Assembly (NCBI GenBank): GCA_034434015.1
Contig: DAOUAB010000229.1
Coordinates: forward strand, 1 to 64,000
DNA: 64,000 nt
Direction: 5' to 3'
Origin: Anaerolineales bacterium
GTDB taxonomy: Bacteria > Chloroflexota > Anaerolineae > Anaerolineales > UBA6663
Positions 1 through 47,835 of this stretch are shown here, in pieces (position 1 is the stretch's first letter; every line of letters starts with the position of its first letter). Both the position numbers and the translations under genes were made by a program. The notes below the pieces were generated by a model, which made no database searches, was not told the origin of the DNA, and was given only the letters and a program-made list of their open reading frames with translations.

Positions 1-2
1 CC

Positions 3-2601: not shown

Positions 2602-2694
2602 TTCGGGATCCTCCGTTATAGTGGGTCTCCCGAACTCGAGTCCGCTGGGCCAATGAAAACACCCTAGCCTTTTGGACTAGGGTGCCTCTCAGAG

Positions 2695-2768
2695 TAGCGG
2701 GGGTTGGATTCGAACCAACGACCTCCGGGTTATGAGTTCTCATCCTGAGAGACAGGCCTTAGTCCAAT
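2695..2768 (-). tRNA. tRNA 3'-half-like fragment (T-arm GTTGG-TTCGAAT-CCAAC plus acceptor 3' strand), probable integration att remnant; no complete cloverleaf could be folded
   Basis: Minus-strand reading gives a canonical T-arm/T-loop GGTTCGAATCC followed by CCCCGCT-A. The acceptor 5' partner AGCGGGG is absent upstream. Directly abuts the integrase. Confidence 0.4.
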
Positions 2769-3491
2769 CGAACATGACGCTGAGCCTGGCCCGACGCACT
2801 CAAGCCCGAATAGACCTTGAGTGTGCTGATTGCGAATCAGTATAGCGTATGTTGAATCGAATGCAAGAGTGAATTTGGATGCACGCGCCATTTTCCTGGA
2901 ACCAGAGTCCGTAAAGCCAAACGACCACCACTGGTCGAGCAAAGTATTTCAGGGCTTTGCTCCTTTATCTTCGTACCACAACCGCACGTTTTGACCCTGG
3001 CGACGACACCGCCTGACAGGGTGCTCTCGTCGTTTGCCGTTGCCCAGCAGCGAATTTCGGGCTACCCGTATTTGCCCACCGATTTTCGGGTAGCCCGAAT
3101 TTACGCTCCCCCGTCGGCGGCTCCCGGCGGCCGGCAGCCAAACAAAGCCCCATGCACCTGAATTTCGTGGAGAGTTCGGAGAAATCTCGGAGGCTTTTCG
3201 GATGTCGCGACACGATTCTGCGATAGGCTGCGTCTCGACTTCTCTCGGCATCGGGTGTGCTGTCAGGATGAGTGACCGGCACCTGGTGCCCCTGGCTGTG
3301 TGCAGACATGGCCGTACGAGTCGCGAGGCCGGCGTCCCCCTCGCCCGGATGACTCGGACCCAGGCCGCGGGCGCATTTACCAGGCGAAAGGCTGGTCTGC
3401 ATGGCAGTTGACCGGGTTTGCGTGAGTGGAGAAGAACGACCTAAACAGACGAAACGGGTTCGCCATTTGACAAAACCGTTCGTCGCTCAGA

Positions 3492-4451
3492 TTGGCCCAG
3501 GAGGCAGGCATGGCATCACTCAAAGGGCAGGTGACTTATTGTTTGAACTCGCTCCAGGCGTACGGGAGCAGCCGGAGGCAGGCGCTCCGACAGGGCACCG
3601 CCGAGCAGTCCATTTATTCGTTCCGCACGATGCAGACGTATTGCCAACTTAATGTGACTTTTGCCGAATGGTGCCAGGACGAACACGGCGCCCGGCGCCT
3701 GGGAGACATTACCCCGGCCATGGCGGAAGCGTTTGTGGCCAGCCTGCGGGAACGCGCTTTGTCCCCCGCCACCATCAACACGTACGTATGCGCCATCAAG
3801 AAGCTGGACACCGGGCTCCGCAAATTAGGCTGGCGCCGGCGCAACGCCGAGCCCTTCGTTTTAGAGTTTGCAGGCCGCAGCGCGGATGCAGTGCCTAATC
3901 CTTATTCTCCCGAAAATGCGGAGCAGTTGATTGCGGGCCTCCATAAGATTGACCCCCAGTATGGACAGGTGGCCCGCCTTCAGCGGGTGAGCGGGTTACG
4001 GGTCAGCGAAGCCGTCCATCTTCAGGCGGAACTGATCGCTCTGGACGGGAGTTGGGTCACGCTGCAAGGGTCTGGCATCCACACCAAGGGCGGGCGCCCT
4101 CGGCGGGTGCCCATTCTTCCCAGACATCAACCATTACTCGTCCAGCTGCGAGCGCAGGGGCTCGCTCACCTGGACCTGCACGTGTTCCAACAGCGGCAAT
4201 CGCTCACGGCCGCCGTCAAACGCGCAACCAGCCGCTTGGTCGCCCGACTGAACATCCAGATCGGCGATGGCACACACTCACTGCGCAAGCTGTATGCCAA
4301 TGAGTTGTACCAGTATCTCCGTCATGAGAAAGCCATGTCCGACGGGGAAGCCCGCCAGGTCGTCAGCCAGGCACTGGGCCACAACCGCTTGGACGTATTG
4401 AAGGCGTATCTGGCTGAAGTCACGATCTCGGATCCAGGCCACAGGGCTTGA
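3492..4451 (+). CDS. Tyrosine recombinase / integrase family protein
   Basis: 319 aa; C-terminal motifs GLRVSEA, HSLRKLYANELY and LGHNRLDVLKAY match the R...HxxR...Y catalytic pattern of tyrosine recombinases. Confidence 0.7.
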   Translation: MAQEAGMASLKGQVTYCLNSLQAYGSSRRQALRQGTAEQSIYSFRTMQTYCQLNVTFAEWCQDEHGARRLGDITPAMAEAFVASLRERALSPATINTYVCAIKKLDTGLRKLGWRRRNAEPFVLEFAGRSADAVPNPYSPENAEQLIAGLHKIDPQYGQVARLQRVSGLRVSEAVHLQAELIALDGSWVTLQGSGIHTKGGRPRRVPILPRHQPLLVQLRAQGLAHLDLHVFQQRQSLTAAVKRATSRLVARLNIQIGDGTHSLRKLYANELYQYLRHEKAMSDGEARQVVSQALGHNRLDVLKAYLAEVTISDPGHRA

Positions 4452-5250: not shown

Positions 5251-5303
5251 GTGAGCATCACCTTCCACGGTCCGGGGGATTGACAAAAGGGCAGTTCTGA
5301 ATA

Positions 5304-5317
5304 AGATATGCATATCT
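5304..5317 (+). promoter_or_regulatory. Perfect 14-bp palindrome AGATATGCATATCT in an AT-rich stretch just upstream of the ArsR-family gene; candidate ArsR/SmtB operator
   Basis: Palindrome seen directly; lies 23 bp upstream of the arsR start in a locally AT-rich promoter-like region. ArsR/SmtB operators are imperfect 12-2-12 AT-rich repeats. Confidence 0.4.
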
Positions 5318-5339
5318 GAGTATACGTTCAGGTATTTCT

Positions 5340-5654
5340 ATGATGATCGCCACAGCCAAGACCCACCTCCTCGACGAACGGACCGCTGCGCAAGTCGCGG
5401 AACTGTTCCGCGCGTTCAGCGACTCCAGCCGAGTGCGCATCATCGCCGCCCTGGCCGATGGAGAAATGAACGTGAGCGCTCTGGCCCAGGCTGCCAACGT
5501 CAGCGAGTCGGCGGTTTCTCACCACATGCGCGGCCTGCGACAGATGCGCCTGGTCCGGGCCCGCAAGGAAGGGCGTCAGGTCTTTTACGCTCTGGACGAC
5601 GACCATGTGGCGGCGCTATTCCGGCAGGGGCTGGAGCACGTCCGGCATGGATAG
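5340..5654 (+). CDS. ArsR/SmtB-family metalloregulatory transcriptional repressor
   Basis: 104 aa winged-HTH; VSALAQAANVSESAVSHHMRGLRQMRLV is typical of ArsR; precedes a P1B ATPase. Confidence 0.85.
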   Translation: MMIATAKTHLLDERTAAQVAELFRAFSDSSRVRIIAALADGEMNVSALAQAANVSESAVSHHMRGLRQMRLVRARKEGRQVFYALDDDHVAALFRQGLEHVRHG

Positions 5655-5967
5655 TCCCCAGAGTAGACGCTGGGCGCTGGCCGTGATTATCGGCCTGGTC
5701 CTCGCCGGACTGATCGGCCACCTGCTCCTGGCGGCGGCCTGTCCGGCGCCGGAACGGGCCCGCCCCGCATGTCCGGATGTTTCCCAGGCAGCGGGCGAAC
5801 TCGACCCCGGGACGTGCGCCCTGCACGCCGGATTTCAAGCGCCGCTGGCAATCCCGCTAAGCCTTCCACTGGCCCTGGTGCTGTTGGCGTTGGTCTGGCC
5901 GCGCCCCCGCGATCCAGAGACGCCGCGTTTCGCCTTCTTCCGTCCCCCCGTCGCCCTCTCAGCCTAG
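5647..5967 (+). CDS. Small hypothetical membrane protein with Cys pairs (CPAPERARPACPD)
   Basis: ATG overlaps the arsR stop (ATGGATAG); one hydrophobic helix; lies between the regulator and the ATPase. Confidence 0.3.
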   Translation: MDSPQSRRWALAVIIGLVLAGLIGHLLLAAACPAPERARPACPDVSQAAGELDPGTCALHAGFQAPLAIPLSLPLALVLLALVWPRPRDPETPRFAFFRPPVALSA

Positions 5968-6056
5968 CGCCGCGCCTGCCGCCGGCGTCTGTATGTCTTG
6001 TGGCTCGCTTTCTGCCAGGGCGAGCCTGGAACTTGGTGTTGCTTTGGAGTGCCTGA

Positions 6057-8399
6057 ATGTCCGAGAAAACGATTGAACTGGAGATCCCCGTGCTCCTGCC
6101 CGGGGTCGAGACCGATGATGACAGTTGCCTGGACCGGCTGGAGGCGGCCCTGCGCCACCAGAGAGGCCTGCTGCGCGTTCACCTCGAGCGCGAGAAACGG
6201 CCGGTCACCCTGTGCCTGCACTATGACCCCAACCTGATGAGCGTCGCGGATGTGAAACGCGCCGCCCAGCGTGCCGGCGCCCAAATCGCCAACCGCTTTC
6301 ACCATGACCTGCTCGCCATCGAGGGCATGGACTGCTCCGATTGCATCAAGGTCATCGAGCACGGCGTGGGCCGAATGCCGGGCGTCCTGGCTGTGAGTGT
6401 GAATTACCCGTCGCAGAAGCTGCGGGTGGAGTACGACACGGAGGCCACCAGCCGCGCGGCGATTGAGAAGCGCGTGCGCGGGCTGGGCTACACCGTCGCC
6501 GCCGAGGGCTGGCGAAGCTGGTATCAGGAGAATCGCGAGATCCTGTTCAGCGTCACCGCCGGCGTCCTGGTCGCCATCGGCTGGGTGGGGGAGACGTTCC
6601 TCGGCCTGCCCGCCCTCGTGGCCACCGTGCTCTACCTGGCCGCCTATGTCTTTGGCGGCTGGGACGTGTCCCGCCACGCCTGGCATGCAGTGAAGGAGCG
6701 CCACTTCGATACCGATCTGCTCATGGTCATGGCCGCCCTCGGCGCCGCGTTCCTGGGTGAGTTCGCCGAGGGCGCCTTCCTGCTCTTCCTCTTCAGCCTG
6801 GGCCATGCGCTCGAAGAACGGGCGCTTGACCGCGCCCGTCAGGCGGTGCGGGCGCTGGCGGACCTGGCACCCAAGACTGCCCTGGTGAGACGCGGCGAGC
6901 GCGAACAGGAATTGCAGGTCGAGGAGCTGCGCCTGGACGACATCGTCGTGGTGAGGCCGGGCACCCGGATCCCGGTCGACGGGGACGTGCTCGCCGGGCA
7001 GTCGGCCGTCAACCAGGCGCCGGTCACGGGCGAGTCCGCGCCCGTGGACAAGGCGCCCGGCGACCGGGTCTTCGCCGGGACGGTGAACGGCGAGGGCGCG
7101 CTGGAGGTAAAAGTGACCCGGCTGGCCCAGGACAGCACCCTGGCGCGGGTCATGAAGATGGTCGAGGAGGCCCAGACCCAGAAGTCCCCAACGCAGCAGA
7201 CGGTGGAGCGCTTCGAGCGTGTGTTTGTGCCGGCGGTGCTCGTCATCACCCTGCTCGTGATCGCCGTGCCGCCCTTGTTTGGCGTGCCCTTCCAGGTGTC
7301 TTTCCTGCGGGCGATGACGCTTCTGGTCGCGGCCTCTCCGTGCGCCCTGGCGCTCGGCACGCCGGCCTCGATCCTGGCCGGGGTCGCGCAGGCCGCGCGC
7401 AACGGCGTTCTGGTCAAAGGCGGCGTCCATCTGGAGAATCTCGGCCGGCTCAAAGCCATCGCCTTCGACAAGACCGGCACCATCACCCACGGTCAGCCGG
7501 AAGTGACCGATGTCGTGGCGTTCGGCGCGCAACTGAAAGACACCCAGCTTCTGTCGATCGCGGGCGCTGTGGAAAACCGCTCCGGCCACCCGCTGGCGCA
7601 GGCCGTCGTGCGCGCGGCCCAAGGCAAAGGGCTGGCGCTTCCCGACCCGGGCGAGGTGGAGTCGCTGACCGGGCGCGGCCTGCGCTCAACCGTCAACGGC
7701 CAAGTGGTGCTGATCGGCAACCCTAAATTGATGGACGAGTCGAATGTGACCGTGTCAGCCGACGCGCAAGCCAGGCTGGAGTCGCTGCAAGGCGAAGGCA
7801 AGACCATCATGCTGGTGGCGGTTGACGGGACCCTGGCCGGCGTGATCGCGGTGGCCGACACGCTCCGCCTCGAGGCGGCGTCGGCGATGGCGGCCCTGAG
7901 GCACCTCGGCGTGCAGGAAACCGTGATGCTCACGGGCGACAACGCCCGGGTGGCGAAAGCGATTGCGGGGAAGGTCGGCCTGACCACCTTCCGCGCCGAC
8001 CTCCTGCCGGAAGACAAAGTGACCACGGTCCGCCAGTTGAATGAGAAGTTCGGTCAGACGGCGATGGTGGGCGACGGCGTAAACGATGCCCCCGCGCTGG
8101 CGAACGCGACCGTCGGCATCGCGATGGGCGGCGCCGGCACGGATGTGGCGCTGGAGACGGCCGACGTGGCCCTGATGGGCGACGATCTCTCGAAGCTGCC
8201 TTTCGCGGTTGGATTGGGCCGCGCCACGCGGGCCATTATTCAGCAGAACCTGTTCATCTCGCTCGGTGTGATCGCACTGCTGGTGATCGCCTCGCTTACC
8301 GGCTGGACCGGCATCGGGATCGCCATCCTGTTTCATGAGGGCAGCACGATTGTGGTAGTGCTGAACGCGCTCCGGCTTCTGGGCTATCGGGCCTCATGA
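6057..8399 (+). CDS. Heavy-metal translocating P1B-type ATPase (HMA N-domain GMDCSDC; TM6 motif SPC)
   Basis: 780 aa; N-terminal HMA CxxC, DKTGTIT phosphorylation site, GDGVNDAP hinge, SPC in TM6. Confidence 0.9.
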   Translation: MSEKTIELEIPVLLPGVETDDDSCLDRLEAALRHQRGLLRVHLEREKRPVTLCLHYDPNLMSVADVKRAAQRAGAQIANRFHHDLLAIEGMDCSDCIKVIEHGVGRMPGVLAVSVNYPSQKLRVEYDTEATSRAAIEKRVRGLGYTVAAEGWRSWYQENREILFSVTAGVLVAIGWVGETFLGLPALVATVLYLAAYVFGGWDVSRHAWHAVKERHFDTDLLMVMAALGAAFLGEFAEGAFLLFLFSLGHALEERALDRARQAVRALADLAPKTALVRRGEREQELQVEELRLDDIVVVRPGTRIPVDGDVLAGQSAVNQAPVTGESAPVDKAPGDRVFAGTVNGEGALEVKVTRLAQDSTLARVMKMVEEAQTQKSPTQQTVERFERVFVPAVLVITLLVIAVPPLFGVPFQVSFLRAMTLLVAASPCALALGTPASILAGVAQAARNGVLVKGGVHLENLGRLKAIAFDKTGTITHGQPEVTDVVAFGAQLKDTQLLSIAGAVENRSGHPLAQAVVRAAQGKGLALPDPGEVESLTGRGLRSTVNGQVVLIGNPKLMDESNVTVSADAQARLESLQGEGKTIMLVAVDGTLAGVIAVADTLRLEAASAMAALRHLGVQETVMLTGDNARVAKAIAGKVGLTTFRADLLPEDKVTTVRQLNEKFGQTAMVGDGVNDAPALANATVGIAMGGAGTDVALETADVALMGDDLSKLPFAVGLGRATRAIIQQNLFISLGVIALLVIASLTGWTGIGIAILFHEGSTIVVVLNALRLLGYRAS

Positions 8400-8509
8400 G
8401 GGACAGGCCGCGGCAGGACGGGCATGAACGGCTGGAATAACGCAGACTGACCGCGCGCAACAGGTGAAGGCGTGCCCGGTTCTGTAACTCTACCAAACAG
8501 GAGGCCTTT

Positions 8510-8797
8510 ATGGAGCCCTTACAGGCGCTGTCCTTGATACTCGATCTGGCCACGGTTGGCCTGACGGTGGCGATGTTCCTGGCGCGTCCACGCGTTGGCG
8601 GCGCCATGGGGCAGGGGATCCAGATCCTCACCATTGGCTTCGTGGTGTTAGGCGTCGCATTTGTCACCGAAACTGGATTGTTCATCCTATCCCGCCTCAG
8701 TTTCCAGGCCAACGAAGTGATTCATCGCATGCTCATTGGGCTGGGGTTTGTCTTGATTATCTGGGGTTTTGGCGTGATGCGGCGCGCTTTCCAGTAG
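8510..8797 (+). CDS. Hypothetical small membrane protein (3 TM)
   Basis: Strong RBS aggagg 6 nt upstream; hydrophobic helices. Confidence 0.5.
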   Translation: MEPLQALSLILDLATVGLTVAMFLARPRVGGAMGQGIQILTIGFVVLGVAFVTETGLFILSRLSFQANEVIHRMLIGLGFVLIIWGFGVMRRAFQ

Positions 8798-8806
8798 CCG
8801 GACGGA

Positions 8807-9430
8807 ATGGATATCTTTGAGAGTATCACGAACGGGATCGTCAGCGCCGGAGCAATTATCCTGCTGGGTGTGATCCTCGCGAGCTGGCTGGCGAGTTATC
8901 GCAGACCAAAGGCCAGGCCGGTTAGGTCGGGTGACTGGTTCTTCACGCTTCCCACGTGGGCGCAAATCGTCGGTGGAGTTGGTGCCTGCGTGCTCTTTGC
9001 CTATCTGGGCTATCTGTTGTGGCTTCCGCTCCCGCTGACTGTTTCGCCCCTCGTGTCATGGATATTGCAGGTTGCCGGGCTGGTGCTTTTTCTCGCGGGG
9101 TGGCTCCTGGTCTTGTGGGCGCGCTGGGCGCTCGGCGCGATGTATGGAGTCAGCACCAGTTTCGCCGCGCCGCTGCGAGCGCAACACCGGCTGATCCAGC
9201 ACGGGCCGTACGCGTTCGTCCGGCACCCGATGTACCTGGGCTACTGGCTTTTGCTGTTGGGCATCACCTTGGTGTACCGCGCGTGGACGCCGTTGTTGCT
9301 CCTGGTGATATGCCTGGCCTCGTTCTACAGGCGGGCACGGCGCGAGGAGCAAGTGCTAGCCGAGACATTCGGCGTAGAGTGGCAGGGCTACAAGGCAAGG
9401 ACAAAGTTTCTCATCCCCTGGGTGTATTGA
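8807..9430 (+). CDS. ICMT/PEMT-family membrane methyltransferase
   Basis: 207 aa multi-TM; HGPYAFVRHPMYLGYWL ... EEQVLAETFGVEWQGYKARTKFLIPW matches the isoprenylcysteine carboxyl methyltransferase family signature. Confidence 0.75.
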   Translation: MDIFESITNGIVSAGAIILLGVILASWLASYRRPKARPVRSGDWFFTLPTWAQIVGGVGACVLFAYLGYLLWLPLPLTVSPLVSWILQVAGLVLFLAGWLLVLWARWALGAMYGVSTSFAAPLRAQHRLIQHGPYAFVRHPMYLGYWLLLLGITLVYRAWTPLLLLVICLASFYRRARREEQVLAETFGVEWQGYKARTKFLIPWVY

Positions 9431-9465
9431 GGATGAGCAGTCAACCGGGAAAGGAGAGAGGATCG

Positions 9466-9912
9466 ATGAAACGACTCGCACTGTTCACCCTTCTCGTCGC
9501 GCTGTCCGCGATGTGGATCAGCGCCTGCGGCGCCGGCTCGTCCGGCCATGACCTGGAAATGGCACCAGCATCGGCCTTGCCGCAGAAGATGCAGGATGCT
9601 CCCACTCAGGTTCGCGAGGCCTATCAATTTGCGCTCGCCAACCAGGCGGTGCTGAAAAAGATCCCCTGCTATTGCGGTTGTGGTGTGGATGGGCACACCA
9701 GCGTCAAGGACTGTTTCGTTCAAGACGTTCGCGCCGACGGCACGGTGATCTGGGACGAAATGGGGCTGGGTTGAAGCATCTGCGTGGACATCGTGCGTGA
9801 CACGATGCGACTGATGCGGGAAGGCAAGTCGCTGGCCGAGATCCGCGCCTACGTTGACGGCTATTACAGCCAGTTCGGCCCGGCCACCGACACCGAACCG
9901 GTGACCCCATAG
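9466..9912 (+). CDS. PCYCGC-motif lipoprotein; in-frame TGA at 9772-9774 (candidate selenocysteine, U-x-x-C); ORF track stops at 9774
   Basis: RBS aggagag; lipoprotein signal MKRLALFTLLVALSAMWISAC; exact PCYCGCG motif. The frame continues after TGA for 45 more codons (SICVDIVRDTMRLM...), giving about 148 aa, the length of the PCYCGC domain. Hairpin catcgtg-CGTGA-cacgatg begins 14 nt after the TGA. Confidence 0.5.
9789..9807 (+). promoter_or_regulatory. Candidate bacterial SECIS-like hairpin (7-bp stem, apical loop CGUGA) 14 nt downstream of the in-frame UGA; outer gcatc/gatgc stem extends it
   Basis: Perfect inverted repeat read directly; GU in the apical loop. Confidence 0.4.
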
Positions 9913-9947
9913 AGAAGACTGACCCTCTAGCATAAAAAGGACGGCAA

Positions 9948-10430
9948 ATGTCTCGCTCAACTCGACCCCAAACCAGACCTGTCGGGCCGCTCGTCCTGAT
10001 CGGCGTTGGCCTGACGCTTCTGATCGGTGCAATCCTGATAAGCCTAGGGCTCTCCCCAACCCCGACGGTACCCACGGCTCCCCTTCAAGATTCTGCCGAG
10101 GACACGTTTCCAGAAATTCCCCGCGTCAGCCTCGCCGACGCCCGGACCGCCTTTGATGCCCAGTCCGCCGTGTTCGTGGACGTACGCGAGCCCGACCCTT
10201 ATACCGCCGGCCACATCCCGGGCGCGCGGTCTCTCCCGTTAGCGGAACTCGAGAGCCGCCTCGGCGAACTCAGCCGTTCGGATTGGATCATCACCTACTG
10301 CACCTGACCGGCCGAGGAGTCCAGCGCCCGTGCGGCGCGCATTCTCCTTGACAACGGCTTTACTAAGGTCACACCGATCCTCGGCGGCTTCCGCGCCTGG
10401 ACGGAAGCGGGTTATCCAGTGGAGCCGTAA
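9948..10430 (+). CDS. Membrane-anchored rhodanese-domain sulfurtransferase; in-frame TGA at 10305-10307 aligns with the catalytic Cys position (candidate Sec-rhodanese); ORF track stops at 10307
   Basis: Rhodanese fold residues HIPGARSLP ... IITYCT-[TGA]-PAEESSARAARILLDNGFTKVTPILGGFRAWTEAGYPVEP continue in frame to TAA at 10428-10430. Spacing U-x6-ARAA matches catalytic C-x6 in GlpE-type rhodaneses. Hairpin gcgcc-CGTGC-ggcgc lies 16 nt after the TGA. Confidence 0.55.
10324..10338 (+). promoter_or_regulatory. Candidate SECIS-like hairpin (loop CGUGC) downstream of the rhodanese in-frame UGA; outer gaggag/ctcctt pairing possible
   Basis: Same loop core CGUG and similar spacing as the hairpin after the first in-frame UGA. 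Confidence 0.35.
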
Positions 10431-10503
10431 ATTATCGCCCGACCGGCGCCGCCTCTCTATCAGCACCGGCATCGTTCATTCACAGTCGCCGGAGACGAGA
10501 TTG

Positions 10504-11094
10504 ATGAAACTGTTTCTGCTACTTTATTTCAGCGCCTTCTTCCTCACCGCTTTCGTGTGGCGCTCTTTCCTGGTCTGGAAACGTACAGGCGTGAACCCAT
10601 ACCAACTTGGGAACACCGACAGCGCCCATGACTTCGTCGGCCGGCTTTTCAGGCTGACCATGATTGTGATTGCCGTCATCGTCATCACCTATGCAGCTTC
10701 GGATAGCGCCTATGAGTTGTTGACCCCAATCCCATGGCTGGGCCATCCGTTGCTGACGTGGGTTGGGACGGTACTGCTCGTGCTGGCGCTGGTCTGGATG
10801 CTGATCGCGCAGGCACAGATGGGGAATGCCTGGCGCATCGGTATTGACGCTGACACAAGGACAGAACTCGTGCAGACCGGCCTGTTCGCTGTCTCGCGCA
10901 ACCCGATTTTCCTCTCGATGCTGGTGATGCTGCTTGGCCTGCTTCTCGTCCTGCCTAGCGCCGCGAGCCTGGCGGTCAGCGTATTGGGCGCGGCGCTGAT
11001 TCACATTCAAATCCGGCTCGAAGAGGAGCACCTGGCCCGATTACATGGGGAAGCCTATCGCGCCTATTGCCGCCGCGTGCGGCGCTGGCTGTAG
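10504..11094 (+). CDS. ICMT/PEMT-family membrane methyltransferase (second copy)
   Basis: 196 aa; TGLFAVSRNPIFLSMLVMLLG ... EEEHLARLHGEAYRAYCRRVRRWL. The track ORF's N-terminal extension (10330-10503) overlaps the rhodanese frame and is likely spurious. Confidence 0.7.
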   Translation: MKLFLLLYFSAFFLTAFVWRSFLVWKRTGVNPYQLGNTDSAHDFVGRLFRLTMIVIAVIVITYAASDSAYELLTPIPWLGHPLLTWVGTVLLVLALVWMLIAQAQMGNAWRIGIDADTRTELVQTGLFAVSRNPIFLSMLVMLLGLLLVLPSAASLAVSVLGAALIHIQIRLEEEHLARLHGEAYRAYCRRVRRWL

Positions 11095-11107
11095 GCGCCT
11101 GGCAGAT

Positions 11108-11533
11108 ATGGACCGGTGGCACGGTGCGATCGAGAACGGGAGGAGCGCCCGCGTAACGAATGACGCGCCCGCCAACCGCTACCATTCTCGGTGCGGGTTT
11201 CGACGAATCGTCATCCTGCTGGCCTTTTTGGCCGGCCTTATCGCGGTTGCCCCGCCGGGCCTGTGCCCGTGCTGGCTCATCGCGGACGTGCGAACCTATC
11301 ATCCACACCCGGACGGCCAGCCCGACCGCCCCCACACGCACGATTACTTATTCGAGTTGTTCCATGCGCAACCGGTGGCAGCTTTGCCTGGGCCACCGAT
11401 AACGATTGGCGATCTAATGCTGGCGCTGATCGGCGCCGGTGTGTGGCGGCACCTCAGCCACCGGGCCTGGCCCGCGCAAGGCTGGGCGACGCCCCCGCCC
11501 ACTCCGCCCCCACGCCTCGCGGCCTCCTGCTGA
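11108..11533 (+). CDS. Hypothetical single-TM protein with CPC and His-rich segment (HPHPDGQPDRPHTHDY)
   Basis: ORF only; possible metal-binding motifs; weak start context. Confidence 0.3.
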   Translation: MDRWHGAIENGRSARVTNDAPANRYHSRCGFRRIVILLAFLAGLIAVAPPGLCPCWLIADVRTYHPHPDGQPDRPHTHDYLFELFHAQPVAALPGPPITIGDLMLALIGAGVWRHLSHRAWPAQGWATPPPTPPPRLAASC

Positions 11534-11584
11534 AGTTCATCGTCTACCCTTTCATGTTTTCGCTAACTGCCAGGAGGCTTGACT

Positions 11585-12178
11585 ATGTTCCGCAAACTCA
11601 TCCCAGCTCTAAGCGCACTGCTGCTGCTTGGCGTCTTGCTTATCCCGCATCCGGCTTCGGCCCACGAAGAAGTCACCGTCGGCGACTACACGCTCGAAAT
11701 CGGCTGGGTGAATGAGCCGGTGTTGCTGGGGGAAACCAATGGCGTCTTCCTGAGTGTCAGGAACACCGAAACTAAAGAACCCGTCGAGAGTCTCACGACC
11801 CTGCAAGTCGCCGTCGCCACGGGCGGCCAAACCCGCGACCTGGAACTGCACCCGCTCGGCGAGGATGCGCCCGGCCAGTATGCCGCCGACTTCATCCCCA
11901 CCGTGCGCGGCACGTACACGGTGAAGCTCACCGGCAAGATCGAAGAGCAGGACGTGGACCTGGAGCAAGAAATCGAAGAAGTCGGGCTGGCCGAAGACTA
12001 TCAATTCCCAATCGTCTTGCCTTCTCTGCCTGAGATGAACCAACAACTCACCGCCCTGCAAGCCGAGAACCAGGCGCTGCGGGCCTCCGCCACGCTCAAC
12101 CAATGGCTAGCCATTGGAGGCATCATCGTCGGGCTGGCCGGGCTGGCGGTGGGCGTCGTCAGCCTGCGCCGGAAATAA
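11585..12178 (+). CDS. YcnI-like (DUF1775) secreted copper-binding protein with C-terminal TM anchor
   Basis: RBS aggagg 7 nt upstream of ATG; signal peptide ending ASAHEE with His predicted as first mature residue; C-terminal TM; immediately upstream of a CopC-CopD gene, as in B. subtilis ycnI-ycnJ. Confidence 0.55.
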   Translation: MFRKLIPALSALLLLGVLLIPHPASAHEEVTVGDYTLEIGWVNEPVLLGETNGVFLSVRNTETKEPVESLTTLQVAVATGGQTRDLELHPLGEDAPGQYAADFIPTVRGTYTVKLTGKIEEQDVDLEQEIEEVGLAEDYQFPIVLPSLPEMNQQLTALQAENQALRASATLNQWLAIGGIIVGLAGLAVGVVSLRRK

Positions 12179-12182
12179 GGCG

Positions 12183-14936
12183 ATGAAGGCGCGCCGGCAT
12201 TTTCTCATCGTGTGGGTGGCGGTCAGCGCATTGGCACTGCTCTGGGCGAGGGCGATTCCAGCCTTCGCCCATGCCGTGCTCCTCTCCGCTGACCCGGCCC
12301 CCAACACCCTCCTCGACACCGCGCCGGCTCAAGTTCGGCTTCTTCTGACCGAGCCGGTGGCGCCCGCCTTTAGCCGGATCGCCGTCTTCGACCAATCCGG
12401 CCGGCAAGTGGACAACGGCGATTTGAAATCGGACAGCGACGATGGCACGGCGCCCGTCGTGACTCTGCCCCCGCTTTCCAGTGGGACGTATCTCGTCAGT
12501 TGGGAAGTGCTCTCCACCGTGGACGGCCACACGACCAGCGGCAGTTTTCCGTTCGGGGTGGGAGTTGCCCAACTGACCTCCGCGCCCGGCTCGGTTTCAT
12601 CCACCGCGCAGCGGCCGACCCCGTTCAGCACCGGCGCGCGCTGGTTCAACCTGACCGGACTCGCGTTACTACTGGGCCTCCTCACCTTCCGCCTGTTGGT
12701 CTGGAACCCGGCCTTCAAGGGCGTTGAGCTGAATGAAGCCGATGAGCGACTTGACTTGGCATTTGGACGCGCGAGCCTGAAAGTGGGCATCGCCGGGTTA
12801 GCGTTGGTGGGATTGGGCTTGATTTTTACCCTGATCGCGCAGGCCGCCAGGATAAACCTGTTGAGCTTCGACAACCTGAGAACTTGGCTGGGTACGCAAT
12901 TCGGCTCACTGTGGTTGGTTCGCTTTTTAGTGACGACGACGGTGGGCTTTGCCATGGCAGATCTATACGTCGGGTTGGGAGAAGGCCGTCGAGGCTTACG
13001 CGGCTGGGAATGGTGGGCCGGACTGGCGGCGTTGATTGGCCTCGCGCTGACAACCGCCTTGGTGAGTCACAGCGCCGCCCTTACTCAGGATACCCAACAG
13101 GCCATCGCGGTGGATGTCGTGCATGTCCTGGCTGCCGGGGTCTGGGTGGGGGGCCTGCTTCAACTGGCGCTTGGGCTGTGGATGGGACGGTCATTCCCGG
13201 CGAACTCGCGGGCGTGGCTCAACTTGAGCCTCTCGCTCAACTTCTCGGCGCTGGCGGCGGGCGCGGTGGGCGCGCTGCTGGTCAGCGGAAGCTACCTGGC
13301 CTGGAAACACGTCGGGAGTTGGACCGCGCTCTTCGGCACAGCGTATGGCCTGACCTTGCTCGCCAAGCTAGCGCTGGCTGTGCCCGCCTTCAGCATCGCG
13401 GCGGTCAATCTCTTGATCATCAAGCCCAGGCTGGACGCGGCCCTCGACCATCCCGAAGCAGCTTCGGCGCTCACGCTGCAACAGCGCTTTGGGCGGCTGG
13501 TGCGCGCGGAAGGTGTATTCGCCTTGCTGGTCCTCGCCGCGGCCGGCCTACTCACCGACCTGCAACGCGGGCAAGATGCGCCCCTGCTGTCCAGCCAGGC
13601 CGAGAAGGTCACGCTGGCGCAACCCGCCGAAGACTTGAACATCTCGCTCAGCCTCGAACCGGCGCTCGTCGGGCAGAACACGTTTGATGTGTACGTGACG
13701 GATGCCAGCGGCCAGCCGGTCGCGGACGCCAAAGAAGTATCGCTGCGTTTCACGTTCTTGGGCCAATCCATCGGCACGGCCGAAGCCAACGCGCCATCAT
13801 CCGGCGATGGACATTACCGCGTGGATGGCGGCTATCTGAGTCTGGCAGGGCCGTGGCAGGTGGAAGTCGCGGTGCGCCGTTCCGAGGCGTTCGACGTTTT
13901 CGCCGCATACCGCGTGGAAGCCGGTCTGAGCGGGGCGATTCAGCCGGTAGGTGGGCAGGCCGGTCTGATTGAGCAACTAACCAAGTTCCTGACCCGCAGC
14001 GGCGGCGCGGCGACGGGCGTCTTTCTCGTGTTGTTCGCCGTCACCTGGTCACTCCTCGCCGGCCGCGCCGCGAAGGAGGACTGGCAGTTGGTGCTGCTAT
14101 TCCTGCCGAGCCTGCTTGCTTTTTGGATTGGGGGAGTCCAGCTGTTCACCTTCGTCCGCGAGTTCACGCCCGCGAAGTTTGTGACCAATCCCATCTTGCC
14201 CGACTCGGCCTCCATCACGCGCGGGCAGGAACTCTACCAGGCCAACTGTGTGACGTGTCACGGCCCGGAAGGGCGCGGCGATGGCCCAGGGGCCATTGGC
14301 CTCACCCCGCCGCCCGCCGACTTCACCGCCGGGCATACGGAGAGCCACCCGGATGGCGACCTGTATTATTGGATCAAAGAAGGGATCAAGGACACCGCCA
14401 TGCCAGCGTTCGGAGACCAGTTCGACGATGAAGACATTTGGCACTTAGTCAACTACGTCCGCCGGTTGAGCGCACAGGAATACCAACCACCCGGGCCCGG
14501 CACATCATCGCCAGGGGTCAGTGATTCGCAGGCTGTGCTGTTCTTGCAGCAAGTCGAGGGAGTGATGAATCAGTTCGCCTCCATGGAGGCAGTGGAAGTA
14601 CTTCGCGATGACAGTGGCGTCGTGACCGCTACCATAATCGCATATCCCCATTTCAATTTCAGCCGTGAGGCCATTGACGTGCAGTTTGGGCCGACGAGCG
14701 AGTTGAGTGGTCAAAGCCAAGCCCGGCAGACCGTCACATTTGCCGTCGGGACTGGCGACTTGCGCTATGACTACGTCTTGGAGGTGGACCCCGCCACGCT
14801 GCGGATTGTCCGCTGGACAATGGATGGACCGAATCACCACATGATGACCGAATACACGACCTATCATCTGCCCGCAACCGTCACCCCGCCATCGGAACTG
14901 TTTGCGCCTACGGCCACGCCCATCGGTACTCCTTAG
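12183..14936 (+). CDS. CopC-CopD fusion (YcnJ-like) with C-terminal mono-haem cytochrome c domain
   Basis: N-terminal CopC fold (signal peptide, AHAVLLSADPAPNTLL...); about 8 TM CopD region; C-terminal CVTCHGPEGRGDG CxxCH with downstream Met ligand region. Confidence 0.85.
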   Translation: MKARRHFLIVWVAVSALALLWARAIPAFAHAVLLSADPAPNTLLDTAPAQVRLLLTEPVAPAFSRIAVFDQSGRQVDNGDLKSDSDDGTAPVVTLPPLSSGTYLVSWEVLSTVDGHTTSGSFPFGVGVAQLTSAPGSVSSTAQRPTPFSTGARWFNLTGLALLLGLLTFRLLVWNPAFKGVELNEADERLDLAFGRASLKVGIAGLALVGLGLIFTLIAQAARINLLSFDNLRTWLGTQFGSLWLVRFLVTTTVGFAMADLYVGLGEGRRGLRGWEWWAGLAALIGLALTTALVSHSAALTQDTQQAIAVDVVHVLAAGVWVGGLLQLALGLWMGRSFPANSRAWLNLSLSLNFSALAAGAVGALLVSGSYLAWKHVGSWTALFGTAYGLTLLAKLALAVPAFSIAAVNLLIIKPRLDAALDHPEAASALTLQQRFGRLVRAEGVFALLVLAAAGLLTDLQRGQDAPLLSSQAEKVTLAQPAEDLNISLSLEPALVGQNTFDVYVTDASGQPVADAKEVSLRFTFLGQSIGTAEANAPSSGDGHYRVDGGYLSLAGPWQVEVAVRRSEAFDVFAAYRVEAGLSGAIQPVGGQAGLIEQLTKFLTRSGGAATGVFLVLFAVTWSLLAGRAAKEDWQLVLLFLPSLLAFWIGGVQLFTFVREFTPAKFVTNPILPDSASITRGQELYQANCVTCHGPEGRGDGPGAIGLTPPPADFTAGHTESHPDGDLYYWIKEGIKDTAMPAFGDQFDDEDIWHLVNYVRRLSAQEYQPPGPGTSSPGVSDSQAVLFLQQVEGVMNQFASMEAVEVLRDDSGVVTATIIAYPHFNFSREAIDVQFGPTSELSGQSQARQTVTFAVGTGDLRYDYVLEVDPATLRIVRWTMDGPNHHMMTEYTTYHLPATVTPPSELFAPTATPIGTP

Positions 14937-46588: not shown

Positions 46589-47215
46589 ATGTTCCTGAGA
46601 AGCATGGTTCTGCTCCTGCTTGCACTGGTGGCCGTCAATCTGTGGTGGCGCTGGGCGAGCCGTCGCCGCTCGCTCCCCTGCCCCACATGGCTGGCTGGGT
46701 TTGTGGATGGCCCTGTGATGGATAGAGTCCTGGGCACGCAGACTACCCTGGATCGCATTGGGCTGCGACCTGGCTATCGGGTGCTCGAAATAGGGCCGGG
46801 GCCCGGTCGGCTGCTCATCCCGGCCGCCCGGCGTGTGCTACCCGGCGGCGAAGTCGTCGGCCTGGATATCCAGCCGGGGATGATTGAACGGCTCAAAGCG
46901 CGGGCGGCGCAGGCCGGTGCGTCGAACCTGACGACGAGTGTGGGCGATGCGACGCAACCGCATTTTCCACCAGATAGTTTTGACGTGATTTATTTCTGCA
47001 CGGTACTGGGCGAAATCCCGAACCGTGAAGCGGCGTTGCGGCAGTGTTATGCGGCGCTCAAATCTGGCGGCCAGCTTTCGATCACGGAAATCTTTCCCGA
47101 CCCACACTACCAATCCCGCGCGACAGTGAAACGATTGGCAGAGGCGACGGGCTTTCGACTACAAGCCATGCCCGGGCCGTGGTACTTTTTCTCGGCGAAC
47201 TTTGTGAAAGCATAG
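46589..47215 (+). CDS. Class I SAM-dependent methyltransferase (N-terminal TM)
   Basis: Motif I VLEIGPGPG; motif II/III DVIYFCTVLGEIPN. Confidence 0.8.
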   Translation: MFLRSMVLLLLALVAVNLWWRWASRRRSLPCPTWLAGFVDGPVMDRVLGTQTTLDRIGLRPGYRVLEIGPGPGRLLIPAARRVLPGGEVVGLDIQPGMIERLKARAAQAGASNLTTSVGDATQPHFPPDSFDVIYFCTVLGEIPNREAALRQCYAALKSGGQLSITEIFPDPHYQSRATVKRLAEATGFRLQAMPGPWYFFSANFVKA

Positions 47216-47241: not shown

Positions 47242-47835
47242 ATGAGCCAAACGTTTTTCCACAGCGTCTTTGTCGTCTTCTTCACGCTGTTTGCCGCGAT
47301 CCGTGTGTATTTCCAGTGGCGCGCCCGGCTAGTGCAGGGGCAGGTTGAATACAAAGAAGGTAAGCTGAATATCGCCTTGCGCGCCCTCATTGGCGCAATA
47401 TTTTTCCTCGATGTCTTACTCTACATCGTTCGCCCGCAGGTCCTGGCGTGGGCGGAACTGCCGCTGCCGCAATGATTGCAGTGGCTGGGCGTTGTGCTGG
47501 GCATAGTCAGTCTTCCCCTCCTCGCGTGGACGCAGCAGGCCCTGGGGAGCAATTTTTCGCCGACGCTCCATGTGCGCCGGGAGCATAGGCTGGTGACCAG
47601 CGGGCCTTATCGCTACATGCGCCACCCGATGTATACGGCATTGTTTCTGTCCATGGCGGCGATTCTACTGCTGACGCGGAGCTGGCTCGTCGGCGGTGTT
47701 CCGCTCGTCGGCCTGTGTGTGATCGTGCTCCTGCGCGTCGAGCGTGAAGAGCGCGTGATGATCGGGAAATTCGGCGACGCGTATCGCGACTATATGAAAC
47801 GCACCGGACGATTTTTGCCTCGGGTGATACGTTGA
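47242..47835 (+). pseudogene. ICMT/PEMT-family methyltransferase interrupted by in-frame TGA at 47473-47475
   Basis: N-terminal TM half (MSQTFFHSVFVVFF...) and C-terminal catalytic half (GPYRYMRHPMYTALFL...EERVMIGKFGDAYRDYMKRTGRF) are in the same frame separated by a single TGA. The aligned position in paralogs is a hydrophobic residue, not Cys. No downstream hairpin seen. Confidence 0.5.

What the first reader, a model, noticed from the sequence alone, without database searches (positions are those of the whole stretch)
8807..11094. Selenoprotein candidates are bracketed by two ICMT/PEMT-family membrane methyltransferases inside a metal-resistance island
Gene order is ICMT-MTase, Sec-PCYCGC lipoprotein, Sec-rhodanese, ICMT-MTase, directly downstream of an ArsR-regulated P1B ATPase. 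A third, TGA-interrupted ICMT gene and two soluble SAM-MTases occur elsewhere in the island.

A thiol/selenol-transfer enzyme pair flanked by membrane methyltransferases suggests a chalcogen (S/Se/Te) or metal(loid) methylation or detoxification module. This is inference from gene context, not an established pathway.
Basis: inference. Interest (0 to 1): 0.55.

Follow-up and report, generated by a model that had tools for sequence, protein, structure and literature searches.

The report
Selenoproteins and methyltransferases in metal-efflux operon
Downstream of a metal-export pump, a Chloroflexota-type bacterium carries two genuine selenocysteine proteins flanked by two membrane methyltransferases; the same gene set recurs in related bacteria, so the grouping is real, but nothing yet shows that it methylates selenium, tellurium or a metalloid.

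Summary
Window 8807-11094 encodes ICMT/PEMT-family protein, PCYCGC lipoprotein with in-frame TGA, membrane-anchored rhodanese with in-frame TGA, and a second ICMT/PEMT-family protein. All lie on one strand behind ArsR and a P1B ATPase.

Both TGAs are very probably selenocysteine codons:
- They align with Cys in homologs.
- They are kept in 26 of 80 species (PCYCGC) and in 63 metagenome loci (rhodanese).
- Each is followed at the same distance by a hairpin with a CGUG(A/C) loop that shows compensatory base changes.

Both belong broadly to selenoprotein kinds already catalogued: PF13798 UxxC and rhodanese CxU.

The link to methyltransferases is conserved but modular. ICMT1-type genes sit beside the Sec-rhodanese in five diverged contigs. 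ICMT2-type genes head ArsR-ATPase-...-Sec-rhodanese operons in seven or more. A membrane-anchored class-I methyltransferase follows Sec-PCYCGC in five species.

The regulator is Cys-free with a Zn/Co-type alpha5 site. The pump has SPC/HEGST motifs, which point to divalent metals. No chalcogen or metalloid gene is present.

Best reading: a metal-efflux operon with outward-facing selenol redox or metal-handling proteins plus CzcN-like methyltransferases of unknown substrate. Chalcogen methylation remains an untested minority hypothesis.

The parts
5280..5307 (+). Promoter-like site (TTGACA-16-TAAGAT) upstream of arsR. Probable operon promoter.
   Evidence: 10 of 12 matches. This is a consensus match only.
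5340..5654 (+). ArsR/SmtB-family repressor. It has no cysteine and a C-terminal DDDH-x10-H-x2-H (alpha5-type) site.
   Evidence: HTH_5; NF033788 at 92.6 bits, above its cut-off of 55. Sequence. The same motif is present in the L119 ortholog.
5647..5967 (+). 106-aa hydrophobic ORF between arsR and the ATPase. Function unknown.
   Evidence: Called in all near-identical contigs. No Pfam hit on record.
6057..8399 (+). P1B-type heavy-metal ATPase with an HMA domain (CSDC), an SPC motif in the transmembrane region and a HEGST motif near the C-terminus.
   Evidence: TIGR01525 627.5 bits; TIGR01512 541.6 bits, above cut-off. Motifs. The same type occurs in all related operons.
8510..8797 (+). 95-aa small membrane protein ('TM95') between the pump and ICMT1.
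   Evidence: No family hit. Homologs sit at the same place in L183 and L102.
8807..9430 (+). ICMT1: ICMT/PEMT-family membrane SAM methyltransferase with RHPMY and EE...FG motifs.
9466..9912 (+). PCYCGC (PF13798) lipoprotein read through TGA. The Sec forms a UxxC motif (GLG-U-SIC).
9772..9774 (+). In-frame TGA, the predicted Sec codon of the PCYCGC protein.
   Evidence: It aligns with an invariant Cys. TGA is kept in 26 of 80 species loci; the other 54 have TGC or TGT.
9789..9807 (+). SECIS-like hairpin: 7-bp stem (9789-9795 with 9801-9807) and loop CGUGA (9796-9800).
   Evidence: two pairs with compensatory changes, in 13 and 11 sequences. (7 of 7 pairs in 25 of 26 Sec forms against 4 of 54 Cys forms).
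9948..10430 (+). Membrane-anchored rhodanese read through TGA. The active-site loop is YC-T-U-P (CxU).
10305..10307 (+). In-frame TGA, the predicted Sec codon of the rhodanese.
   Evidence: TGA at this position in 64 genes of 63 other loci. Cys in distant homologs. The 'W' in database proteins is a translation artefact.
10324..10338 (+). SECIS-like hairpin: 5-bp stem (10324-10328 with 10334-10338) and loop CGUGC (10329-10333).
   Evidence: The stem is intact in 49 of 50 distinct sequences. There are C-G to U-A compensations, and the synonymous third positions inside the hairpin are nearly invariant.
10504..11094 (+). ICMT2: second ICMT/PEMT-family membrane methyltransferase, with an SRNPIF variant of the motif.
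   Evidence: Orthologs (58-86% identity) are the first gene of ArsR-ATPase operons that end in the Sec-rhodanese.
46589..47215 (+). Class-I SAM methyltransferase with an N-terminal hydrophobic segment. Part of the same recurring gene set, but located elsewhere in the island.
   Evidence: Methyltransf_25 at 73.6 bits. (44% identical over its full length to the methyltransferase that follows Sec-PCYCGC in L036)..
47242..47835 (+). ICMT3: third ICMT-family gene, interrupted by TGA at 47473-47475. Probable pseudogene.
   Evidence: The TGA aligns with Trp. There is no hairpin. NF040696 scores 154.1 bits when the codon is repaired to Trp.

Best explanation
Window 5280-11094 is one ArsR-controlled metal-efflux operon of an Anaerolineae-like Chloroflexota bacterium, carried on a mobile island. 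It has three layers.

1. A Cys-free alpha5-site ArsR/SmtB repressor and an SPC/HEGST-type P1B ATPase sense and export a divalent transition metal. The motifs point to the Zn/Co/Cd class. This is inferred from motifs.

2. Two true selenoproteins sit on the outer face of the membrane. One is a lipoprotein with a UxxC motif at the start of a helix in a weakly CcmH-like helical domain, plus a PCYCGC-H-C cluster. The other is a single-pass-anchored rhodanese with a Cys-x-Sec active-site loop. I infer that they act as selenol-based thiol-disulfide or metal-handling partners. They would keep exposed cysteine chemistry working, or bind and pass on the thiophilic metal that the pump delivers.

3. Two ICMT-fold membrane methyltransferases, plus a third dead copy and a class-I methyltransferase elsewhere in the island, are CzcN/NccN-like accessory components of the same toolkit. 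They have intact SAM-binding motifs, so they are probably active enzymes. They most likely act on a membrane-embedded or lipophilic substrate that is not yet known.

Shown: the genes, the Sec recoding signals, the conserved modular co-occurrence, and the ICMT fold.
Inferred: the metal, the outward topology, the redox or metal-handling role, and any coupling between the methyltransferases and the selenoproteins.
For: - Families and order.
- Operon structure.
- Sec in PCYCGC: Cys in homologs; TGA and downstream frame conserved at 74-78% identity; 26 of 80 species have TGA; hairpin covariation; the hairpin is specific to Sec forms, 25 of 26 against 4 of 54.
- Sec in the rhodanese: TGA in 64 genes at 63 loci; hairpin with compensations and frozen synonymous sites; Cys in distant homologs.
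- TGA is an ordinary stop elsewhere in the window.
- Toolkit recurrence:
  - L012 has all four genes.
  - L182 has ArsR-ICMT2-P1B-ICMT1-SecRhod.
  - L183 has CDF-ICMT2-TM95-ICMT1-SecRhod.
  - L185 has SecRhod-ICMT1.
  - Seven contigs have ICMT2-ArsR-P1B-(SCO1)-PCuAC-sm97-SecRhod.
  - Sec-PCYCGC is followed by a class-I methyltransferase in L021, L025, L026, L036 and L039.
  - L022 has SecRhod-SecPCYCGC in the opposite order.
- Pump and regulator type.
- General PF13798 context is extracytoplasmic redox and copper proteins: a COX2-like cupredoxin in 67 of 80 loci, Fer4_5 polyferredoxin, DUF1573, CcdA-like and thioredoxin-like proteins.
- ICMT fold of ICMT1.
- Precedent: CzcN/NccN, an ICMT-family membrane protein in the czc and ncc metal determinants, function unknown (PMC7563307, PMC9045368, PMC12193353).
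Against: - No experiment and no expression data are available.
- The metal is uncertain. SPC/HEGST and the alpha5 site suggest Zn/Co, yet the neighbours are copper-type (CopC/CopD, PCuAC, SCO1, DUF305).
- Both selenoproteins score below the curated NCBIfam cut-offs of the catalogued families: 60.7 against 90, and 68.8 against 115.
- The tight adjacency of ICMT1-type genes to the Sec-rhodanese in five diverged contigs suggests a more direct coupling than 'accessory to the pump'. This explanation leaves that coupling unspecified.
- The Sec machinery (selA, selB, selC, selD) could not be checked. None lies in the window or in the fetched loci.
Confidence: 0.5

Rival explanations
1. Chalcogen or chalcogenide methylation module. 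The rhodanese and the UxxC lipoprotein mobilise sulfane sulfur or selenium as persulfide or perselenide. The ICMT-fold enzymes, acting like MddA, then methylate the resulting sulfide, selenide or thiol to volatile or less reactive methyl species. This could dispose of the chalcogenide produced when exported metal is precipitated or bound.
For: - ICMT-family enzymes can S-methylate small thiols. All three window ICMTs hit the MddA model, which belongs to this family.
- Three structurally unrelated kinds of methyltransferase gene (ICMT1-type, ICMT2-type, class I) recur beside the two selenoproteins.
- ICMT1-type genes are immediately adjacent to the Sec-rhodanese in five diverged contigs.
- Rhodaneses are sulfur and selenium carriers (established knowledge of the family).
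Against: - MddA scores are 24-36 bits against a cut-off of 270.
- ICMT1-type proteins have no conserved Cys.
- No selenite, tellurite, arsenic or sulfide-sensing gene is in the window or the related loci.
- The regulator is a Cys-free Zn/Co-type sensor, unlike the thiol-based sulfide or arsenite sensors.
- The selenoproteins face outward while the SAM site of ICMT-fold enzymes faces the cytoplasm.
- Most Sec-rhodanese and most PCYCGC loci have no methyltransferase nearby.
Confidence: 0.17
2. Membrane or lipid remodelling. The ICMT/PEMT-family proteins methylate a membrane lipid or lipid-linked group, in the manner of PEMT on phosphatidylethanolamine, LmtA on lipid A phosphate or BpsB on phenolic lipids. 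This would lower metal binding or permeability of the envelope. The selenoproteins would work independently as envelope redox proteins.
For: - PEMT is the best Pfam hit for ICMT1 and ICMT2.
- LmtA is a weak NCBIfam hit.
- The ICMT fold has a membrane-embedded substrate tunnel (and established structural knowledge).
- ICMT2-type genes track ArsR and the pump rather than the selenoproteins.
- CzcN shows the same association in Proteobacteria without selenoproteins.
Against: - It does not explain the tight ICMT1 to Sec-rhodanese adjacency.
- No lipid-synthesis genes are nearby.
- No data exist on the lipids of these organisms.
Confidence: 0.18
3. Mosaic island without functional coupling. The four genes are neighbours only because mobile metal-resistance islands accumulate and shuffle cassettes.
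For: - IS21 and integrase genes lie at 1-4.4 kb.
- Gene order differs between contigs, and PCYCGC is present or absent between ICMT1 and the rhodanese.
- One ICMT copy is already dead.
Against: - The same families reassemble in at least five different orders, always on one strand and with short gaps.
- There is clade-specific enrichment (p = 0.0027).
- Proteins are 54-86% identical, which indicates long-term retention.
Confidence: 0.1
4. The in-frame TGAs are real stops (truncated genes or pseudogenes), or are read as Trp or Gly under an alternative genetic code.
For: - Gene callers truncate both genes.
- Some database entries show W at the rhodanese position.
Against: - The reading frame and protein sequence after the TGA are conserved across diverged orthologs.
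- Cys occupies the position in homologs.
- The hairpins are specific to the TGA forms and show covariation.
- The database 'W' comes from DNA that reads TGA.
- TGA ends ordinary genes in the window, for example ICMT1.
Confidence: 0.02

Closest known systems
CYCXC / OS_HP4 selenoprotein family (Pfam PF13798 PCYCGC; NCBIfam NF041379), listed with a UxxC Sec motif in the 2026 review PMC13188914
   Same: - PF13798 domain at 106.8 bits, above cut-off.
- Sec at the first position of a UxxC motif that is CxxC in Cys homologs.
- Lipoprotein.
- Function unknown in the literature.
   Different: - Scores only 60.7 bits on NF041379, whose cut-off is 90.
- Belongs to a Chloroflexota sub-clade (WDEMGLG-U-SIC) that sits in P1B-ATPase islands, next to methyltransferases.
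- The usual PF13798 context is cupredoxin, polyferredoxin and DUF1573.
Rhodanese-like selenoprotein 'form 3', CxU motif (NCBIfam NF041203, rhodanese_LYCAU), PMC13188914
   Same: - Single rhodanese domain.
- Sec two residues after the canonical active-site Cys (YC-T-U here, YC-A-U in the model name).
- NF041203 is the best NCBIfam hit.
   Different: - 68.8 bits against a cut-off of 115.
- Has an N-terminal membrane anchor and a Pro/Thr-rich linker, so the domain is predicted to face outward.
- The conserved loop is WIITYCT-U-P(A/S)EESSARAA.
CzcN / NccN of Cupriavidus metallidurans, and the czcN homolog between cusF and copF in Pseudomonas putida
   Same: - ICMT-family membrane protein encoded inside heavy-metal efflux determinants.
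- Function still unknown (PMC7563307, PMC3056050, PMC9045368, PMC12193353).
   Different: - Different phylum and a different pump class (RND czcCBA against a P1B ATPase).
- No selenoproteins next to czcN.
- Direct sequence relationship to ICMT1 or ICMT2 was not tested, because no CzcN sequence was available to the tools. The plasmid search gave only distant rhizobial ICMT hits.
MddA, methanethiol S-methyltransferase (ICMT family; NCBIfam NF045656)
   Same: - Same fold family.
   Different: - The window proteins score 36.4, 24.4 and 28.5 bits against a cut-off of 270.
- They score higher on the generic ICMT model.
CcmH / NrfF periplasmic thiol-disulfide oxidoreductase domain (PDB 2HL7, 2KW0)
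   Same: - Small helical extracytoplasmic domain with a CxxC (here UxxC) at the start of a helix.
   Different: - 16% identity.
- Foldseek and profile matches are not significant.
- The PCYCGC protein has an extra Cys-rich PCYCGC-H-C element that CcmH lacks.
Multi-selenoprotein operons tied to metals: the SAO and Tso systems (Haft & Gwadz 2023; Haft & Tolstoy 2025, as summarised in PMC13188914)
   Same: - Several selenoprotein genes in one operon with an ArsR-type regulator and metal or organometal themes.
- A rhodanese selenoprotein (TsoB) and methyltransferase selenoproteins exist there.
   Different: - Different families and a different lineage.
- Here the methyltransferases are not themselves selenoproteins.
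- Hits to TsoB (27.4 bits against 805) and TsoR (54.4 bits against 115) are far below cut-off.
- The 2025 paper itself could not be read.

Membership tests
Bacterial selenoprotein gene (Sec-encoding UGA) | In-frame TGA with a conserved coding frame on both sides | tested here: met
   Downstream peptide sequence is conserved up to a normal stop in orthologs of 44-86% identity.
Bacterial selenoprotein gene (Sec-encoding UGA) | Cys at the aligned position in homologs | tested here: met
   PCYCGC: 54 of 80 species have TGC or TGT. Rhodanese: Cys appears only in distant homologs of 31-33% identity, and one ortholog has Arg.
Bacterial selenoprotein gene (Sec-encoding UGA) | SECIS stem-loop shortly downstream of the UGA, supported by covariation | tested here: met
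   The loop CGUG(A/C) lies at +25 to +29 in both genes. There are compensatory pairs, and the hairpin is absent from most Cys forms. No Rfam model matched.
Bacterial selenoprotein gene (Sec-encoding UGA) | Genome encodes SelA, SelB, SelD and tRNA-Sec | not testable with these tools
   None is in the 64-kb window or in any fetched locus. Whole genomes could not be scanned.
CYCXC / OS_HP4 (NF041379) | Score at or above the curated cut-off of 90 bits | tested here: not met
   60.7 bits. The broader Pfam PF13798 criterion is met at 106.8 bits against 25.
Rhodanese selenoprotein form 3 (NF041203) | Score at or above the curated cut-off of 115 bits | tested here: not met
   68.8 bits. The CxU motif itself is present.
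ICMT/PEMT-family membrane methyltransferase | Pfam PF04140 or PF04191 above the gathering score | tested here: met
   ICMT1: 43.7 and 57.2 bits. ICMT2: 30.2 and 47.1 bits. Cut-offs are 24 and 25.
ICMT/PEMT-family membrane methyltransferase | ICMT fold with the C-terminal SAM-binding motifs (R-H/N-P-x-Y/F ... EE..L...FG..Y) | tested here: met
Protein-S-isoprenylcysteine O-methyltransferase proper (NF040696) | Score at or above the curated cut-off of 160 bits | tested here: not met
   73.1 bits (ICMT1), 44.5 bits (ICMT2) and 154.1 bits (ICMT3 repaired to Trp).
MddA methanethiol S-methyltransferase (NF045656) | Score at or above the curated cut-off of 270 bits | tested here: not met
   36.4, 24.4 and 28.5 bits.
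CzcN/NccN-like metal-determinant ICMT proteins | ICMT-family gene embedded in a heavy-metal efflux operon | tested here: met
   for the context. Literature.
CzcN/NccN-like metal-determinant ICMT proteins | Sequence orthology to CzcN | not tested
   No CzcN sequence was available. The plasmid tblastn search returned only distant rhizobial hits.
P1B-4-like (SPC/HEGxT) heavy-metal ATPase | SPC in the metal-binding helix and HEG(G/S)T in the last helix (subgroup signatures recalled from the literature) | tested here: met
   The N-terminal HMA domain is atypical for this subgroup. Metal specificity was not tested.
Alpha5-site (CzrA/SmtB-type) ArsR metal sensor | DxH-x10-H-x2-(H/E) at the C-terminal helix, with no thiolate sites | tested here: met
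   The sequence reads DDDHVAALFRQGLEHVRH and has no Cys. The L119 ortholog has the same motif. Metal binding was not tested.

The most novel reading that the evidence does not exclude
ICMT-fold membrane methyltransferases and an outward-facing Cys-x-Sec rhodanese, with or without the UxxC PCYCGC lipoprotein, form a dedicated pathway coupled to a P1B metal pump. The selenoproteins would carry or release a chalcogenide or a metal-chalcogenide species at the membrane surface, and the ICMT enzymes would methylate it (or the metal-bound thiolate or selenolate) inside the membrane. If so, this would give the first biochemical role for the CzcN/NccN class of metal-determinant proteins, and it would be a new route of metal-linked S or Se methylation.
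Probability: 0.15. Interest if true: 0.8.

Novelty: new variant of a known kind. Interest (0 to 1): 0.45.

Why it matters
Each piece belongs to a kind already on record: PF13798 and rhodanese selenoproteins, ICMT-family genes in metal determinants, and ArsR-controlled P1B ATPase operons.

What appears new is that they form one recurring, reshuffled toolkit in Chloroflexota. The literature I could search does not describe it.

Two questions become testable:
- What CzcN-type methyltransferases do in metal resistance. This has been open since the czc and ncc operons were described.
- Why bacteria place selenocysteine, rather than cysteine, on the outer face of the membrane next to a metal pump.

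The work also shows that gene callers systematically truncate or mistranslate these two proteins. As a result, the toolkit is largely invisible in current annotation.

Tried and rejected
- **Rfam.** The scan of the window found nothing at gathering thresholds. No curated model covers these bacterial SECIS elements.
- **tRNA-Sec.** ARAGORN found none in the window or in any fetched locus. This says nothing about the genome as a whole.
- **Plasmid search.** tblastn of ICMT1 against plasmids, meant to reach pMOL30 czcN, gave only distant rhizobial ICMT hits. It led nowhere.
- **ICMT3 as a third selenoprotein.** Rejected: Trp sits at the aligned position and there is no hairpin (z = +1.95).
- **Trp at the rhodanese position.** Rejected as a database artefact. 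The DNA reads TGA.
- **ICMT as a general PF13798 neighbour.** Rejected: only 6 of 80 species loci.
- **ArsR operator.** No inverted repeat was found upstream of arsR.
- **Haft & Tolstoy 2025.** The paper (PMC12013261) is not held, so I cannot exclude that this neighbourhood is described there.
- **Substrate-specifying residues in ICMT1.** No conserved Cys exists in ICMT1-type proteins.

Full report
**What is in the sequence**

On the + strand the window carries a tightly packed gene row:

- arsR, 5340-5654
- a 106-aa hydrophobic ORF, 5647-5967
- a P1B ATPase, 6057-8399
- a 95-aa membrane protein, 8510-8797
- ICMT1, 8807-9430
- a PCYCGC lipoprotein, 9466-9912
- a rhodanese, 9948-10430
- ICMT2, 10504-11094

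Pfam confirms every family call above its gathering score: PEMT and ICMT for both flanking genes, PF13798 at 106.8 bits, and Rhodanese at 56.8 bits.

The PCYCGC ORF is interrupted by TGA at 9772-9774 and the rhodanese ORF by TGA at 10305-10307. A promoter-like site lies just before arsR, and no terminator-like site occurs on this strand until after 12300. The row is therefore probably one transcript.

Downstream follow CopC/CopD-cytochrome c, DUF3105, DUF305, a PCuAC-like gene and a two-component system. Upstream lie IS21 and integrase genes.

**Are the two TGAs selenocysteine codons?**

*PCYCGC protein*

- Full-length homologs have an invariant Cys at the aligned position. It is the first Cys of a GCSICVDI (CxxC) motif.
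- Orthologs only 74-78% identical keep the TGA and a conserved reading frame up to a normal stop.
- Among 80 species-representative genomes, almost all Chloroflexota and mostly Anaerolineae by record title, 26 have TGA there and 54 have TGC or TGT.
- A 7-bp hairpin with loop CGUGA or CGGGA lies at +18 to +36 from the UGA.
- Two of its pairs show compensatory double changes: A-U to G-C in 13 sequences and C-G to U-A in 11. At the protein level these appear as V...T, T...V and A...A swaps.
- All seven pairs form in 25 of 26 Sec forms but in only 4 of 54 Cys forms.

*Rhodanese*

- 64 further genes at 63 loci carry TGA in the loop WIITYCT-U-P(A/S)EESSARAA.
- Distant homologs have Cys (YCTCP), and one ortholog has Arg.
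- Several database proteins show Trp at this position. That is an artefact: the DNA reads TGA, and the record does not translate to the stored protein under the bacterial code.
- A 5-bp stem with loop CGUGC sits at the same distance as in the PCYCGC gene.
- The stem is intact in 49 of 50 distinct sequences, with C-G to U-A compensations.
- Synonymous third positions inside the hairpin are almost invariant, while neighbouring third positions vary freely.

TGA also ends ordinary genes in the window, for example ICMT1, so an alternative genetic code is excluded. The one missing element is the Sec machinery, which is not in the window or the fetched loci and could not be searched for genome-wide. 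I regard both genes as selenoprotein genes with high confidence.

By contrast, the TGA in ICMT3 aligns with a conserved Trp and lacks any hairpin. It is a nonsense codon.

**Are these selenoproteins new?**

No, at the level of kind. A 2026 review lists a 'CYCXC family protein (OS_HP4)', PF13798, with a UxxC Sec motif. It also lists a rhodanese 'form 3' with a CxU motif, NF041203.

The window proteins hit exactly those NCBIfam models best, but below the curated cut-offs: 60.7 against 90 bits and 68.8 against 115 bits. They are therefore diverged relatives, not members by the curators' criterion.

**Is the link to ICMT genes conserved?**

It is, but not as a fixed 'bracket'.

Starting from PCYCGC:

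- The usual neighbours of PF13798 genes are a COX2-like cupredoxin (67 of 80 loci), a Fer4_5 polyferredoxin membrane protein and DUF1573 (37 of 80). CcdA-like and thioredoxin-like genes occur in some loci.
- ICMT genes occur only in the sub-clade closest to the window: 4 of 11 species against 2 of 69 (p = 0.0027).
- In that sub-clade a class-I SAM methyltransferase directly follows Sec-PCYCGC in five species.
- One of those methyltransferases is 44% identical over its full length to the window gene at 46589-47215.

Starting from the rhodanese:

- The usual neighbours are a second Cys-type rhodanese, a PCuAC-like gene, SCO1, a small Cys-rich protein, and an ArsR-P1B ATPase pair.
- In seven contigs the operon begins with an ICMT2-type gene: ICMT2-ArsR-P1B-(SCO1)-PCuAC-sm97-SecRhod-Rhod2.

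Starting from ICMT1, orthologs of 54-71% identity lie as follows:

- L182: ArsR-ICMT2-P1B-ICMT1-SecRhod-CDF
- L183: CDF-ICMT2-TM95-ICMT1-SecRhod
- L185: SecRhod-ICMT1-DUF1573-CCG-FAD oxidase
- L184: 1.4 kb from the Sec-rhodanese

Two further arrangements:

- L012 keeps all four genes in the window's order.
- L022 has SecRhod-SecPCYCGC in the opposite order.

The conserved unit is therefore a toolkit that is reshuffled on one strand. It comprises an SPC/HEGST P1B ATPase, an alpha5-type ArsR, ICMT1-type, ICMT2-type and class-I methyltransferases, the Sec-rhodanese, and optionally Sec-PCYCGC. Retention through this much rearrangement argues for functional linkage.

**What the parts say about mechanism**

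*Regulator and pump*

- The ArsR has no cysteine and ends in DDDH-x10-H-x2-H, the alpha5 site known from Zn/Co sensors such as CzrA and SmtB (sequence; the assignment is from established knowledge).
- Every ATPase attached to the toolkit has SPC and HEGST motifs and a CSDC HMA domain. These are the signatures of the Co/Zn-type subgroup rather than the Cu(I) subgroup.
- The copper-type neighbours (CopCD, PCuAC, SCO1) leave the metal uncertain.

*Selenoproteins*

- The PCYCGC protein has a lipobox (ISAC).
- The rhodanese has a positively charged N-terminus, one hydrophobic helix and a Pro/Thr-rich linker.
- Both are therefore predicted to face outward (sequence features; inference).
- A confident model of a Cys homolog (pLDDT 88.8) places the CxxC at the start of a helix.

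*Methyltransferases*

- It is not an ortholog of true ICMT or of MddA by curated cut-offs.
- It has no conserved Cys.

**Best explanation and rivals**

I favour a metal-efflux operon whose accessory layer has two parts:

- Outward-facing selenol proteins that handle thiol-disulfide chemistry or the metal itself at the membrane surface.
- CzcN-like ICMT-fold methyltransferases that act on an unidentified membrane or lipophilic substrate.

My confidence is 0.5. The precedent is CzcN/NccN, an ICMT-family membrane protein in the czc and ncc determinants whose function is still listed as unknown.

- In its favour, methyltransferases of three kinds recur beside the selenoproteins, and ICMT1 is glued to the rhodanese.
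- Against it, the evidence is guilt by association only. The regulator, the pump type, the lack of any chalcogen or metalloid gene and the topology all point away.

The other rivals are lipid remodelling (0.18), a mosaic island without functional coupling (0.10), and TGA read as a stop or under another code (0.02).

**Novelty and score**

- The selenoprotein kinds are known.
- ICMT genes in metal determinants are known.
- The recurring Chloroflexota toolkit that joins them to one ATPase type was not found in the literature I could search. One directly relevant 2025 paper could not be read.

I rate it a new variant of a known kind, with interest 0.45. The anatomy is solid and gives a handle on the old CzcN question, but there is no mechanistic surprise yet.

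Noticed in passing
window 47242-47835 (TGA at 47473-47475): The third ICMT-family gene is split by a TGA that aligns with a conserved Trp, and no hairpin follows it. The same split is called in another sample's contig (L018). It is probably a fixed pseudogene and not a selenoprotein.
   Followed up: yes
Proteins P0124, P0126, P0130, P0133, P0137, P0141 and P0143; loci L099 and L100: Public protein databases hold 'full-length' versions of the Sec-rhodanese with Trp at the Sec position. The underlying DNA reads TGA, so some pipelines translated short contigs with a TGA=Trp code. Most other entries are truncated at the TGA (102 aa for PCYCGC, 114-121 aa for the rhodanese).
   Followed up: yes
L019-L098 (80 species loci). 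For example, L027 at 10451-14053: The usual partner of PF13798 genes is a cupredoxin with a CuA-like C-x3-C-G-x2-H-x2-M motif (COX2 and Cupredoxin_1 hits). It is followed by a Fer4_5 polyferredoxin membrane protein, a cupredoxin-cytochrome c and DUF1573. The cupredoxin is found in 67 of 80 loci. This hints that PCYCGC proteins are maturation or redox partners of that cupredoxin system.
   Followed up: partly
window 45614-46581: Two adjacent lipoprotein signal peptidase (Peptidase_A8, LspA) paralogs lie directly upstream of the class-I methyltransferase, ICMT3 and two P1B ATPases. Extra LspA copies inside a metal island that also encodes a selenocysteine lipoprotein are unusual.
   Followed up: no
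window 48170-50296; also L021 at 8746-10866, L025 at 1603-3753 and L139 at 9289-11415: A second type of P1B ATPase has APC instead of CPC or SPC, HE(I/V)SE near the C-terminus, and no N-terminal CxxC. It recurs next to Sec-PCYCGC and the class-I methyltransferase in other genomes. Its metal specificity is not obvious.
   Followed up: partly
window 28154-32764; L105-L112; L185 at 8635-14132: A block of DUF1573 lipoprotein, CCG-domain protein, FAD-linked oxidase, 4Fe-4S protein, a 400-aa protein and DsbA is elsewhere in the window. In other contigs it sits directly after the Sec-rhodanese or after an ICMT1-type gene. It seems to belong to the same recurring toolkit.
   Followed up: partly
window 9787-9810 and the aligned positions in L019-L098: Sec forms of PCYCGC read DI(V/T/A)RD(T/V/A)M, whereas Cys forms read DITQDVM. 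The Arg codon and the paired V/T/A residues are dictated by the SECIS hairpin, so the RNA structure shapes the protein sequence.
   Followed up: yes
L101 at 5837-6310: One ortholog of the Sec-rhodanese has CGA (Arg) in place of TGA, in a non-metal context (proline dehydrogenase, UbiA, MoeA). This is a single-base change from the Sec codon that would abolish the CxU chemistry.
   Followed up: no
window 1-4451: IS21-type IstB and three tyrosine-recombinase (integrase) genes precede the operon. Contigs from at least ten different samples encode an identical ICMT1 protein, and most of them carry the same flanking operon genes, which suggests a mobile or clonally widespread island.
   Followed up: no
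L014 at 6587-7873 (also in L015 and L016): A 428-aa protein with an ICMT/PEMT domain, twice the usual length, directly follows Sec-PCYCGC and a CDF transporter. Its extra half was not examined.
   Followed up: no
L115, L119, L142, L158 and L172, about 400 nt upstream of the Sec-rhodanese: A conserved ~97-aa secreted protein with a C-N-C...C-L-V-C pattern ('sm97') sits between the PCuAC-like gene and the Sec-rhodanese in 20 loci. It has no Pfam hit.
   Followed up: no
L019 (contig CAZGUM010000003.1): The closest species-level relative of the window's PCYCGC gene (78% identity) is filed under an 'uncultured Methylomonas sp.' bin. All other close relatives are Chloroflexota, so this contig is probably mis-binned.
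   Followed up: no
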